A stretch of 64,000 nucleotides of DNA, taken from NCBI RefSeq assembly GCF_024223415.1, contig NZ_CP100501.1; one strand, given 5' to 3'. Below the pieces are notes generated by a model that was given only the letters and a program-made list of their open reading frames with translations, ran no database searches and was not told where the DNA came from. Both the position numbers and the translations under genes were made by a program. This document shows, piece by piece, positions 11,697 to 16,546 of this stretch; positions within the stretch are counted from its first letter, which is position 1, and each line of letters starts with the position of its first letter. The stretch is from Escherichia coli. GTDB lineage: Bacteria > Pseudomonadota > Gammaproteobacteria > Enterobacterales > Enterobacteriaceae.

Positions 11697-11847
11697 GGGG
11701 ATTCCTCCATAGATGAATGGATAAATTTCGGGATTAAGTCGGGTGGCATGAATGCGAATCAGCGCCGGTAATAACCGGACAGGAATGAATTCAACAGGAC
11801 ATTTTTACAGAGAAGAGCGAACGGCAGAAGGTGGTGGGAGACAGGTA

Positions 11848-11879
11848 CAAAAAAACCGACTGGTGAGGCCGGTTTTTTT
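11848..11879. terminator. possible bidirectional terminator-like hairpin between the nuclease gene and trbA
   Basis: AAAAAACCG ... CGGTTTTTTT inverted repeat with A/T runs on both sides; weak call. Confidence 0.25.
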
Positions 11880-12478
11880 GCGATTCCGGGGTGGAGTTGG
11901 TGGCTCTGACCGGAGGAAGTCTCTTTTCAGCTAACAATGAGAGAGCTGTTGTGACAGGCAATGTAAGAGTAAGCAGCAGTGATTTCCTCCATTGACGGAG
12001 AAACGGATGATTAACCTGTTAATCATCGTTCTCAGGGCGGTTGTTGCTGTGGCTAACGCAGTGATAGCTCTCCGGGAACTGGTTGACTGATAATCCCGGA
12101 AACGTACTTAAGGGCAGAGGGTCACCTCCTTCTGCCCTTTAACAAAATATGCTCAGGTTAAAAATCGAAAACCTTCCTGCACTTCCTGTGCCTGTTCCCG
12201 TGAGCCAAACATGAGCCGGCTTTTACCCGGAACTCCCCAGGAAATATATTCTACATCCACCCACCATTTTCCGTATTCTTCATACGGTCCGGATATCACT
12301 TTAGTGACAAATGCATCAATCAGGTTCATTTTTACACCTTTCTGTTATTCTGCTTATTACGACCAGCAGACAGCAAATATTAAAAATAACGCGGCGGTAA
12401 AAATGGCAATTTTTTTCATGCTGTATTTTTGCCATTTATTTTCTTTGAAATGGTTTTTTTCTTCATATCAGCAAATAA

Positions 12479-14717: not shown

Positions 14718-14971
14718 CGGTGGGGTACAAACGCAGAAATTTTGTTGTCATTACATCATCAGTTTTAGCCTGCAGAGACGCTGAAAAATCAGCGTTTTCA
14801 GACCCTGTTCAGGTTAGTGAATATTCTTGCCTGGCCTTTCGGCAATATCAATCCCCTGATGTGTGCACACGTAGTCACTTTCCGGCTTTATTTCTGTCCC
14901 TGACACAAAATACGTGGTGGCATGAAAAGGATTGTGGCGGACAGGAAAACGATTAGAATAGCGGCGGGCGC

Positions 14972-15265
14972 TTGAGGCTGTATGCCGAAAGCGTTTTGTG
15001 GACGGCATGTAGCAGAAAGCCCCAGGCGATTTTTTTATCAATCAACCCAGGGCCCACTGTAATGCCTAGACAACATTATAGTAGCCCGATGACGGCCGAA
15101 AGGCAATGGAGGGGCTGCGATGCCACAACGAACGTTTTTAATGATGTTAATCGTCGTCTGTGTGACGATACTGTGTTTTGTCTGGATGGTGAGGGATTCG
15201 CTTTGCGGATTTCGTATCGAGCAGGGAAATACGGTGCTTGTGGCAACGTTAGCCTACGAAGTTAA
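14972..15265 (+). CDS. pndC: pndC/mok-like leader reading frame overlapping the Hok-type toxin gene
   Basis: ORF in a different frame that overlaps pndA almost completely, as in hok/mok and pndA/pndC loci; start uncertain. Confidence 0.5.
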   Translation: MRLYAESVLWTACSRKPQAIFLSINPGPTVMPRQHYSSPMTAERQWRGCDATTNVFNDVNRRLCDDTVFCLDGEGFALRISYRAGKYGACGNVSLRS

Positions 15266-15272
15266 ACGTTAA
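15120..15272 (+). CDS. pndA: Hok/Gef-family type I toxin PndA (50 aa)
   Basis: Translated by hand: MPQRTFLMMLIVVCVTILCFVWMVRDSLCGFRIEQGNTVLVATLAYEVKR; not in the ORF track because it is short. Confidence 0.85.
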   Translation: MPQRTFLMMLIVVCVTILCFVWMVRDSLCGFRIEQGNTVLVATLAYEVKR

Positions 15273-15409
15273 CGGGCAACACGGCGGTAGAGAATCTGCC
15301 GCCGGATTGTTGCGAAGGCTGACCTCAATGCGCCTTGTTTGTCTTTTTTACCGGACGACTGCTGGTTGCTGCTGTCCGGCAGCTATTATTTTTTCCGTCC
15401 TGTGCGTCA

Positions 15410-15625
15410 TCAATTATGACAGTCGCTCTCATTTAGTTGTCTCTGGTTAGATGTATTATTATATATTTTCGGGGTAATTCGATAAAAGTTATCCACTTCA
15501 GCACCAGACTGAATGATATATGCAATAAGATCTAAACGATGAATCTCGTATCGTGTACGTAACTCCATTATTTCACGCCATGGAGTACCATGTCGTGCTG
15601 GAAAATTGCTGCGGGATTCAGACAT
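15410..15625 (-). CDS. hypothetical small protein in the AT-rich stretch downstream of excA
   Basis: ORF only; position corresponds to where I would expect an excB-like gene; weak. Confidence 0.25.
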   Translation of the reverse strand: MSESRSNFPARHGTPWREIMELRTRYEIHRLDLIAYIIQSGAEVDNFYRITPKIYNNTSNQRQLNESDCHN

Positions 15626-15898: not shown

Positions 15899-16546
15899 TC
15901 AAAATACTTCTGCAACAGGAACACCGGCAACTTTTTCCCACTCTTTAACCCGATACCGGATCATCTGTGGGAAACGTTCCTTGTACTCATATCCACGTGC
16001 AGCCATGGTGTGCATGGTGTTGGCCAGCGTCCTTGCTGAGATGCCGGAGATCTCAAGAGGAATCATCGGCAGACTCACATAGGTGGTGTGGATTTCCAGC
16101 TTGCCGTCCTCAGCAACCGTGCGGGTAAAGTTGTGAATATCCAGACCAATCACATCCATCACATTGTTTGGATAAATACGCACATACAGCATGGTGCCGT
16201 TTTTAATGTCGATCCCGAAATAACAACTCTTCGAGAATGACAGTTGCTCATAATCGCTGGTCGGCGCAAAGGGACTGCTTTCTTTTATCTGCTGAACAAC
16301 CTGCTGGACTTTCTTTTTCTTCGCCCTGGTTCTTAGATATAGCCAGAGTAATGGGAGGATAATCAGCGTTGAACATCCATATGTTATCATATAGATATTA
16401 GGGGAGGAGTATCTGGCGTAGCTAATACTTAATGTACCTAATATTGCATATATTAATAGGAATGGTATTCCAATAATAAAATAAGCATTGCGGATCAGGT
16501 AATAATATGCCCACCAGGAAGGATATCTGTTTTTTGTTGTACTCAT
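15899..16546 (-). CDS. excA: entry-exclusion ExcA-like inner-membrane protein
   Basis: 215-aa product with N-terminal TM helices, AT-rich gene immediately downstream of traY as in R64 (recalled). Confidence 0.6.
   Translation of the reverse strand: MSTTKNRYPSWWAYYYLIRNAYFIIGIPFLLIYAILGTLSISYARYSSPNIYMITYGCSTLIILPLLWLYLRTRAKKKKVQQVVQQIKESSPFAPTSDYEQLSFSKSCYFGIDIKNGTMLYVRIYPNNVMDVIGLDIHNFTRTVAEDGKLEIHTTYVSLPMIPLEISGISARTLANTMHTMAARGYEYKERFPQMIRYRVKEWEKVAGVPVAEVF

What the first reader, a model, noticed from the sequence alone, without database searches (positions are those of the whole stretch)
14972..15300. Hok-type pndCA toxin locus inside the transfer region; the 50-aa toxin ORF is absent from the ORF track
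Hand translation from 15120 gives a 50-aa hydrophobic peptide matching the PndA/Hok family, overlapped in another frame by a longer leader ORF, the classic mok/hok arrangement. A Sok-like antisense RNA should be encoded on the opposite strand over the leader (about 14990..15110). This is a plasmid-maintenance module embedded between excA and the small-ORF array.
Basis: partly seen in the sequence, partly recalled or inferred. Interest (0 to 1): 0.35.

Follow-up and report, generated by a model that had tools for sequence, protein, structure and literature searches.

The report
Known pnd (Hok-family) plasmid addiction module
This is the well-known pnd toxin/antisense-RNA "addiction" module of I-complex conjugative plasmids (toxin gene identical to the plasmid R16 allele), which kills cells that lose the plasmid; it is intact and ordinary, not new.

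Summary
A 50-codon ORF at 15120..15272 (+) encodes a Hok/Gef toxin (Pfam PF01848, E 1.3e-12). Its DNA is 100% identical to the published pndA allele of IncB plasmid R16, and it differs from the R483 allele at 10 nt and 4 aa. The leader at 14966..15122 matches Rfam RF01794 (hok/sok leader) at 125.6 bits against a cut-off of 59.

The window is an I-complex (IncI1/B/O/K/Z) plasmid. The locus lies in the transfer region between the trbA-side accessory genes and excA. pnd was described in that region of R64 in 1996.

All parts of the Gerdes hok/sok mechanism can be placed:
- an mRNA promoter;
- a 5' tac element that pairs with a 3' fbi element in the full-length fold;
- an antisense-target hairpin with a YUNR loop;
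- the pndC (mok-like) frame;
- a sequestered pndA Shine-Dalgarno;
- a minus-strand promoter and a PndB RNA of about 63 nt.

- pndC starts at the conserved ATG 15062 (67 codons), not at TTG 14972.
- PndB spans about 15012..15074 (-), with its promoter at 15078..15106.

About 1,890 plasmid records and 22% of complete E. coli genomes carry the locus. It is already known and of low interest.

The parts
14932..14959 (+). Predicted pnd mRNA promoter: -35 TTGTGG (14932-14937), 16-nt spacer, -10 TAGAAT (14954-14959)
   Evidence: Relaxed hexamer scan, 8 of 12 matches. The stricter tool scan missed it. The -10 hexamer is invariant in 7 pnd variants, and sequence similarity between variants starts here. 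Transcription was not tested.
14966..15393 (+). Predicted primary pnd transcript, about 428 nt. By analogy with hok it would be trimmed to a 'full-length' form ending at the fbi element (about 15335), then to an active truncated form ending after the 15283-15303 hairpin
   Evidence: The 5' end is set by Rfam model position 1. The full transcript folds with z = -5.4 against shuffles. hok mRNA isoforms of 441, 398 and 361 nt are described in PMC1635323. The RNA ends are inferred, not mapped.
14966..14977 (+). tac (translational activator) element at the 5' end, GGGCGCTTGAGG
   Evidence: It pairs with the fbi element in the minimum-energy fold of the full-length RNA. It pairs with 15016-15023 in the truncated RNA and in the Rfam consensus structure. 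It is invariant in the pnd variants and conserved in the R1-type hok locus.
15016..15023 (+). AAAGCCCC, the partner of tac in the refolded (active) leader
   Evidence: Rfam consensus structure, fold of the truncated RNA and consensus fold of 8 leaders.
15056..15082 (+). Antisense-target hairpin: a 9-bp stem and the loop CCUAGACAA (15065-15073), which contains CUAG (a YUNR motif). The pndC AUG sits at the top of the 5' arm
   Evidence: and the Rfam consensus structure. The stem is conserved. The loop varies between alleles: CCUAGA, CAUCGA, CUUCGA, CCUCAA.
15062..15265 (+). pndC (mok-like) reading frame: 67 codons, overlapping pndA in another frame and ending 7 nt before the pndA stop
   Evidence: The ATG at -58 is conserved and the frame is open in all 7 pnd variants. 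The other candidate starts are not conserved. There are no family hits, as expected for a frame needed only for translational coupling.
15108..15114 (+). pndA Shine-Dalgarno GGAGGGG, part of which (GGGGCU, about 15110-15115) is paired in the AGCCC/GGGCU helix
   Evidence: Sequence. Consensus structure pairs, columns 141-145 with 172-176, and the Rfam consensus structure.
15120..15272 (+). pndA toxin gene, 50 aa, Hok/Gef family
   Evidence: The DNA is 100% identical to 'PndA_R16'. It is 34% identical to R1-type Hok, E 5e-12.
15078..15106 (-). Predicted PndB promoter: -35 TTGCCT (15106-15101), 17-nt spacer, -10 TACTAT (15083-15078), overlapped by TATAAT (15080-15075)
   Evidence: Relaxed scan. 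Both hexamers are invariant in 7 variants. It aligns with the TTGCGC-17-TATCCT stretch of the R1-type locus, which I recall to be the Sok promoter. Transcription was not tested.
15012..15074 (-). Predicted PndB antisense RNA, about 61-63 nt: an unpaired 5' tail of 13-15 nt complementary to the target loop, a long stem-loop, then CUUUCU
   Evidence: Fold -24.9 kcal/mol, z = -3.5 to -4.0. The IncI1 allele and the R1-type Sok region give the same architecture. It covers the weak Shine-Dalgarno-like stretch upstream of pndC (CAGGGCC, 15048-15054) and the pndC AUG. A target length of 63 nt is inferred from the percentages in PMC3562002. The ends are good to about +/-3 nt and were not mapped.
15283..15303 (+). 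Stable hairpin GGCGGUAGAGAAUCUGCCGCC, the likely road-block for 3' exonucleolytic trimming
   Evidence: It forms in both folds. The stem is conserved and the loop is variable. It aligns with the GGCGGGCGCAGGCCCGCC hairpin of hok. Its role is inferred from the hok model.
15323..15334 (+). fbi (fold-back inhibition) element CCTCAATGCGCC, complementary to tac with one bulged base
   Evidence: It pairs with 14966-14977 in the minimum-energy fold. The paired bases are conserved while the bulged base varies (A, C or T), and L006 has one C-to-T change that keeps a G-U pair. Similarity between alleles stops just after it.
15363..15393 (+). Terminator-like hairpin followed by a T-run. It is specific to this allele, because the downstream sequence differs in the R483-type allele

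Best explanation
The locus is an intact pndBCA type I toxin-antitoxin (post-segregational killing) module of the hok/sok family, R16-type allele, on an I-complex conjugative plasmid. The likely mechanism follows the hok/sok and pnd model. A stable pnd mRNA is made from a weak promoter. Its 5' tac element pairs with the 3' fbi element, which locks it in a form that is neither translated nor bound by the antisense RNA. Slow 3' trimming back to the 15283-15303 hairpin frees the 5' end. The 5' end then re-pairs with 15016-15023, and the leader refolds to present the target hairpin and the pndC start. Ribosomes translating pndC open the helix that holds the pndA Shine-Dalgarno, so PndA, a 50-aa inner-membrane toxin, is made. 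In plasmid-carrying cells the unstable PndB RNA of about 63 nt, made from the opposite strand, binds the target loop through its 5' tail. It covers the pndC start and blocks translation, and RNase III cleaves the duplex. After plasmid loss PndB decays first and the cell is killed. Shown here: sequence identity, family membership, the positions of the elements, alternative folds consistent with the model, and conservation. Inferred from the literature: transcription, processing, coupling and killing.
For: - Toxin: Pfam HOK_GEF E 1.3e-12. UniRef names the exact peptide 'Protein PndA'. The CDS is 100% identical to the published PndA_R16 sequence.
- Leader: Rfam RF01794 at 125.6 bits against a gathering score of 59, full length.
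- Folds: the full-length fold pairs 14966-77 with 15323-34. The truncated fold re-pairs the 5' end with 15016-23 and keeps the target hairpin.
- Consensus fold of 8 leaders: 37 pairs, 5 of them with changes on both sides, and many G-C/G-U/A-U switches in hairpin I.
- pndC: the ATG and frame are conserved in 7 variants.
- PndB: the promoter hexamers are invariant and the fold has Sok-like architecture.
- Context: trbA ... pnd ... excA-traY, on an IncI1/B/O or IncK2/Z plasmid, with PK-repZ in the window.
- Distribution: 1,890 plasmid records, 1,842 of them typed as conjugative, and 1,216 of 5,426 complete E. coli genomes.
- Literature: mechanism in PMC4147584 and PMC1635323. pnd in IncI plasmids and its killing of plasmid-free cells in PMC7602700, PMC5330492 and PMC4083329. 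The R16 allele could not be cloned unmutated, which fits toxicity.
Against: - Nothing in the sequence argues against it.
- Both promoters score only 8 of 12 and were missed by the stricter scan.
- The RNA ends are inferred by homology, not mapped.
- NCBIfam HokA and Hok-family models score below their curated cut-offs (66.7 against 89, and 41.5 against 73). It is therefore a Hok-family member but not the HokA or R1-Hok equivalog.
- The contribution to stability is context-dependent. Deleting pnd alone did not destabilise pCT or pESBL.
Confidence: 0.95

Rival explanations
1. The locus is a decayed, non-functional hok-like remnant, as proposed for many chromosomal hok loci. It would be kept only by hitch-hiking in the transfer region.
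For: Decayed copies do exist. L008, on an IncF plasmid, has an internal deletion that removes most of the toxin ORF, and it lies next to an IS3 element. Deleting pnd alone had no stability phenotype in pCT or pESBL.
Against: Every element is intact here. The ORF is complete and identical to the R16 allele. The promoters, tac, fbi, target hairpin and pndC frame are conserved across alleles that are about 10% divergent. [quoted passage not shown] Attempts to clone PndA_R16 gave no clones or only mutated ones.
Confidence: 0.03
2. The 97-codon ORF from TTG 14972 is a real protein-coding leader gene, as the first reader's 'longer leader ORF' implies, rather than a 67-codon pndC.
For: The frame is open from 14972 in the window. 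Long versions of 94 codons, from another ATG, also exist in L002 and L004 to L007.
Against: TTG 14972 lies 6 nt from the predicted mRNA 5' end, inside the tac stem. The extension uses different starts in different alleles and is absent in L003, where a 1-nt indel leaves only the -58 and -31 starts. There are no protein-family hits. The ATG at 15062 aligns with the ATG in the target hairpin of R1-type hok.
Confidence: 0.03
3. The module's main role here is not vertical stabilisation. It could instead serve competition between related plasmids, or anti-phage or abortive-infection defence, using the same toxin/antisense mechanism.
For: pnd alone is dispensable for stability in pCT and pESBL. The antisense-recognition loop differs between alleles, which could separate specificity groups. 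A second type I pair (dqlB/AgrB) lies 3 kb away.
Against: No evidence for this was obtained here. R64 was rapidly lost when pnd was inactivated (Furuya and Komano 1996, as summarised), and neutralising pndBCA was enough to cure an IncI1 plasmid. Both support post-segregational killing.
Confidence: 0.1

Closest known systems
pnd (pndBCA) of IncB plasmid R16
   Same: The toxin CDS is identical base for base with the sequence listed as PndA_R16. The nearest plasmids are typed IncI1/B/O or IncK2/Z.
   Different: Nothing detectable in the CDS. The full R16 locus was not available to compare the non-coding parts.
pnd of IncI1 plasmids R483 and R64 (Nielsen et al. 1991; Nielsen and Gerdes 1995; Furuya and Komano 1996)
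   Same: Same organisation, and the same position in the transfer region next to trbA and excA. About 90% nucleotide identity from the promoter to the fbi element. The tac element, promoters, target stem and pndC frame are conserved.
   Different: 10 nt and 4 aa differ in PndA: V13I, F31L, I33L, E34Q. In the common allele pnd sits directly beside trbA, whereas here about 3.3 kb of accessory genes intervene. The sequence downstream of the fbi element, including the terminator, is unrelated. In the IncI1 and I-gamma loci sampled here (L004 to L007) the toxin ORF has an extra upstream in-frame ATG; the R483 upstream sequence itself was not examined.
hok/sok/mok (parB) of plasmid R1
   Same: Same mechanism and layout: tac 5' end GGCGCUUGAGG, target hairpin carrying the mok/pndC AUG, antisense promoter at the aligned position, road-block hairpin and fbi element.
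   Different: The toxins are only 34% identical and the leader has indels. It is a different antisense specificity group.
srnB and flm (hok) of plasmid F; chromosomal hokA to hokE
   Same: Same Hok/Gef family and the same type I regulation.
   Different: Not compared by sequence here. The HokA equivalog model scores below its cut-off. Chromosomal loci are reported as inactive for post-segregational killing.

Membership tests
Hok/Sok (Hok/Gef) type I toxin-antitoxin family | Toxin of about 50 aa with an N-terminal hydrophobic helix and the conserved Hok/Gef domain | tested here: met
   PF01848 E 1.3e-12, 47.5 bits against a cut-off of 22, covering residues 7-46. BLASTP against R1-type Hok gives E 5e-12.
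Hok/Sok (Hok/Gef) type I toxin-antitoxin family | Structured mRNA leader matching the family covariance model (tac stem, hairpin I, antisense-target hairpin, helix holding the Shine-Dalgarno) | tested here: met
   RF01794 at 125.6 bits against 59, full model 1-157. The consensus fold of 8 leaders keeps these helices.
Hok/Sok (Hok/Gef) type I toxin-antitoxin family | Overlapping mok-like frame that starts inside the antisense target and ends near the toxin stop | tested here: met
   ATG 15062..15265, 67 codons, conserved in 7 variants.
Hok/Sok (Hok/Gef) type I toxin-antitoxin family | Pairing of the 5' and 3' ends (tac with fbi) in the full-length mRNA, released by 3' trimming | tested here: met
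   The minimum-energy fold pairs 14966-77 with 15323-34. Removing the 3' end re-pairs the 5' end locally. The paired bases are conserved and the bulged base is variable. The processing itself cannot be tested in silico.
Hok/Sok (Hok/Gef) type I toxin-antitoxin family | Cis-encoded antisense RNA of about 60-65 nt with its own promoter, a single-stranded 5' tail and a terminator stem-loop | tested here: met
   Conserved TTGCCT-17-TACTAT on the minus strand. Fold with a 13-15 nt tail plus a stem-loop, z about -3.5 to -4. These are sequence-level tests only.
Hok/Sok (Hok/Gef) type I toxin-antitoxin family | Expression of both RNAs, instability of the antisense, and post-segregational or rifampicin-induced killing | not testable with these tools
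   Known for the pnd loci of R483, R64 and pESBL from the literature.
pnd locus of I-complex plasmids (named gene pndA) | Sequence identity to a characterised pndA allele, and a location in the I-type transfer region | tested here: met
   The CDS equals PndA_R16. UniRef names the peptide 'Protein PndA'. It lies between the trbA side and excA/traY.
NCBIfam HokA equivalog (NF007290) and Hok family subfamily (NF007279) | Score at or above the curated cut-off | tested here: not met
   66.7 bits against 89, and 41.5 bits against 73. It is not HokA or R1-Hok proper. It forms its own PndA branch of the family.

The most novel reading that the evidence does not exclude
The 9-nt antisense-recognition loop, and therefore the PndB 5' tail, exists in at least four versions among otherwise conserved pnd alleles: CCUAGA here, and CAUCGA, CUUCGA and CCUCAA elsewhere. 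These could define PndB specificity groups that do not cross-react. A PndB from one I-complex plasmid would then fail to neutralise the pnd mRNA of another. That would matter for plasmid competition and for curing strategies that supply the antitoxin, and it would qualify the published statement that pndB is identical in all IncI1 plasmids.
Probability: 0.2. Interest if true: 0.3.

Novelty: already known. Interest (0 to 1): 0.08.

Why it matters
It adds no new biology. pnd is a textbook type I toxin-antitoxin module, known since about 1990 and described within the IncI1 transfer region in 1996. The practical value is for annotation. RefSeq records label only a 'Hok/Gef family protein' and omit pndC, PndB and the RNA elements. 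The Rfam 'sok' hit falls on the mRNA strand. This report gives strand-correct coordinates for all the parts. The module matters in practice because it helps resistance plasmids of the I-complex persist, and it is a target for plasmid-curing approaches.

Tried and rejected
- The stock promoter scan found neither promoter, because its threshold is 9 of 12 matches. A relaxed scan plus conservation was used instead.
- Fetching R64 (AP005147) failed because it is not in the plasmid collection.
- Furuya and Komano 1996 (PMC177830) is not held. Its content is cited only through its title and through the summary in PMC4083329.
- I first took ATG 15089 as the pndC start. I rejected it because it is ATA in the common IncI1 allele.
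- I recalled from memory that this peptide was the R483 allele. The supplement of bioRxiv 10.1101/2025.08.07.668861 lists it as the R16 allele, so I rejected that recollection.
- The mechanical 97-codon ORF was rejected as a gene (see the rival explanations).
- A weak Pfam hit of that ORF to Peptidase_C3 (E 0.22) was dismissed as noise.
- The Rfam scan of the whole window found no second hok/sok locus.

Full report
**1. Observation.** There is a 50-codon ORF at 15120..15272 (+), MPQRTFLMMLIVVCVTILCFVWMVRDSLCGFRIEQGNTVLVATLAYEVKR. It is overlapped in another frame by an ORF that is mechanically open from TTG 14972 to 15265. There is no frameshift. The ORF was missing from an "ORF track" only because of a length cut-off: with min_aa 70 only the 97-codon ORF is listed, and the tool's default minimum is 60 aa.

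**2. Identity.**
- The peptide matches Pfam PF01848 (Hok/Gef) at E 1.3e-12, 47.5 bits against a gathering score of 22.
- The exact sequence is in the protein collection, where UniRef names it "Protein PndA" (PNDA1_ECOLX).
- The 153-nt CDS is identical base for base to the sequence listed as "15_1423 PndA_R16" in the supplement of bioRxiv 10.1101/2025.08.07.668861.
- The R483 allele listed there differs at 10 nt and 4 residues: V13I, F31L, I33L, E34Q. I had recalled this peptide as the R483 allele, and the paper's table corrected me.
- Identity to R1-type Hok is 34%, E 5e-12.
- NCBIfam's HokA and Hok-family models hit below their cut-offs. It is a Hok-family toxin on its own PndA branch.

**3. 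RNA leader.** Rfam RF01794 ("sok") matches 14966..15122 on the plus strand over the full model, at 125.6 bits against 59, E about 1e-29. Despite its name and its "antitoxin" type, the model aligns here to the mRNA strand and ends in the toxin's AUG. It therefore describes the refolded leader, not the antisense gene, which must lie on the other strand.

**4. Replicon and context.** The 501-nt region is found in 1,890 plasmid records, 1,842 of which are typed as conjugative. They are mostly from Escherichia, Salmonella and Shigella. It is also found in 1,216 of 5,426 complete E. coli genomes, almost always on plasmids.

Records that are 100% identical across the locus are typed IncI1/B/O (CP032260) and IncK2/Z (pCh101). 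The window also carries the repZ pseudoknot of I-complex replicons.

By synteny and family hits, the gene order in the window is:
- trbC, trbB and trbA (to 11696, minus strand);
- dqlB;
- a thermonuclease gene;
- an ECs1377-family gene;
- small ORFs;
- pnd;
- a remnant ORF;
- excA (15899..16546, minus strand; NF033891, 264 bits);
- traY, traX and traW.

[quoted passage not shown] In the common IncI1 allele pnd lies directly beside trbA.

**5. Anatomy.** I aligned the window with six pnd variants that are 86-95% identical, from IncF, IncK2/Z, IncI1 and IncI-gamma plasmids, and with an R1-type hok locus.

- **Extent.** Similarity begins at the -10 hexamer and stops immediately after a 12-nt element at 15323-15334.
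- **mRNA promoter.** TTGTGG, 16 nt, TAGAAT at 14932-14959.
- **tac and fbi.** The 5' end GGGCGCUUGAGG (14966-14977) is invariant. In the minimum-energy fold of the 430-nt transcript it pairs with CCUCAAUGCGCC (15323-15334). The fold is -169 kcal/mol, z = -5.4. Across variants the paired bases are kept, the single bulged base varies (A, C or T), and one C-to-T change preserves a G-U pair.
- **Refolding.** When the 3' end is removed back to the stable hairpin at 15283-15303, the 5' end re-pairs with AAAGCCCC (15016-15023). This is the pairing in the Rfam consensus.
- **Target hairpin.** The hairpin at 15056-15082 (9-bp stem, loop CCUAGACAA, which contains the YUNR-type CUAG) is predicted in both folds and in the consensus fold of eight leaders. 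That consensus fold has 37 pairs, 5 of them with double-sided changes, and many G-C, G-U and A-U switches in hairpin I.
- **pndA ribosome site.** Part of the Shine-Dalgarno GGAGGGG (15108-15114), the GGGGCU stretch, is paired in an AGCCC/GGGCU helix.

**6. pndC.** Of the candidate starts in the overlapping frame, only ATG 15062 is conserved in all seven variants. From it the frame is open for 67 codons to a stop 7 nt before the pndA stop. ATG 15089 is ATA in the common IncI1 allele. The extension up to TTG 14972 starts inside the tac stem, uses different starts in different alleles, and is lost in L003. ATG 15062 lies at the top of the target hairpin, aligned with the ATG of the R1-type locus. 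pndC is therefore 15062..15265.

**7. PndB.** On the minus strand, TTGCCT, 17 nt, TACTAT (15106-15078, overlapped by a perfect TATAAT) is invariant in all variants. It aligns with TTGCGC-17-TATCCT in the R1-type locus, which I recall to be the Sok promoter.

An RNA running from about 15074 to about 15012 folds as follows: an unpaired 5' tail of 13-15 nt complementary to the target loop, then a long stem-loop, then CUUUCU. The energy is -24.9 kcal/mol and z is -3.5 to -4.0. The IncI1 allele and the R1-type Sok region give the same shape. This matches the published Sok architecture: 64 nt, a stem-loop and an 11-nt tail (PMC1635323). It also matches a pndB target of 63 nt, which is implied by the percentages in PMC3562002. 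The RNA covers the weak Shine-Dalgarno-like stretch upstream of pndC (CAGGGCC, 15048-15054) and the pndC AUG.

**8. Mechanism.** The steps that were shown and those that were inferred are separated in the Best explanation section. The sequence supports every structural requirement of the hok/sok and pnd model:
- an inert full-length mRNA locked by end-pairing;
- slow 3' trimming;
- refolding;
- pndC-coupled translation of PndA;
- blockage by an unstable antisense RNA, with RNase III clearance of the duplex;
- killing after plasmid loss.

Functional literature on pnd:
- R64 was rapidly lost when pnd was inactivated (as summarised).
- Neutralising pndBCA was sufficient to cure an IncI1 plasmid in the mouse gut.
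- Deleting pnd had no effect on pCT stability.
- The R16 allele could not be cloned unmutated in a toxicity screen.

**9. Rivals.** A decayed remnant is unlikely because all elements are intact. A truly decayed copy (L008) looks very different. A real 97-aa protein is unlikely for the reasons given in section 6. A role other than post-segregational killing cannot be excluded, but nothing found here supports it.

**10. Verdict.** The module is already known, intact and extremely common, so interest is low. The only mildly open point is the allelic variation in the recognition loop, described under the novel case.

Noticed in passing
window 11847..12090: A second type I toxin-antitoxin pair lies 3 kb upstream. 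It has a 27-aa DinQ-like toxin DqlB ORF (12007..12090 +, MINLLIVLRAVVAVANAVIALRELVD-type; NF041473, 47 bits against a cut-off of 35) and an Rfam AgrB antisense RNA hit on the opposite strand (11847..11934 -, 51.8 bits against 40)..
   Followed up: partly
window 15410..15625 (-): The 71-aa ORF between pnd and excA is an in-frame internal-deletion remnant of a 528-aa protein with a TnsA endonuclease N-terminal domain, which is present at this spot in CP032260. Residues 1-16 are fused to residues 473-528, at 96-100% identity.
   Followed up: partly
window 14966..15122 (+): Rfam RF01794 is named 'sok antitoxin' but matches the mRNA (sense) strand and ends in the toxin AUG. Read literally, it would put the antitoxin on the wrong strand with the wrong length. 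RefSeq/PGAP records annotate only the Hok/Gef CDS here, with no pndC and no antisense RNA.
   Followed up: yes
window 15065..15073; L002, L005, L007: The antisense-recognition loop differs between pnd alleles (CCUAGA, CAUCGA, CUUCGA, CCUCAA), while the stem and both promoters are invariant. This is at odds with the statement that pndB is identical in all IncI1 plasmids (PMC5330492).
   Followed up: no
window 63838..63988 (+); 421..507 (+); 6072..6188 (-): The repZ regulatory pseudoknot of the I-complex replicon (RF01087, 167 bits) is at the end of the window. There are also two ALIL pseudoknot hits (RF01497), a family I recall as the frameshift signal of IS3-family insertion sequences.
   Followed up: no
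L009 (NZ_CP128973.1 32150-33005), positions about 290-510: This IncFII hok locus has a Hok identical to the 52-aa sequence I recalled as R1 Hok. The ATG in its target hairpin is in frame with hok (57 nt upstream, no stop), so no out-of-frame mok-like ORF was found. RefSeq annotates only a truncated 33-aa Hok CDS (408..509), although the 52-codon ORF from 351 is intact.
   Followed up: partly
L008 (NZ_CP063337.1 56613-57433): A decayed pnd-like copy on an IncFIA/FIC plasmid. The leader is about 78% identical, an internal deletion removes the toxin's transmembrane part, and an IS3-family transposase gene lies immediately downstream. It is unannotated.
   Followed up: partly
window 15336..15400 compared with L004 to L007: Similarity between the R16-type and R483-type alleles stops exactly after the fbi element. 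The terminator-like hairpin at 15363-15385 is present only in the window-type allele, so different alleles must end transcription at unrelated sequences.
   Followed up: no
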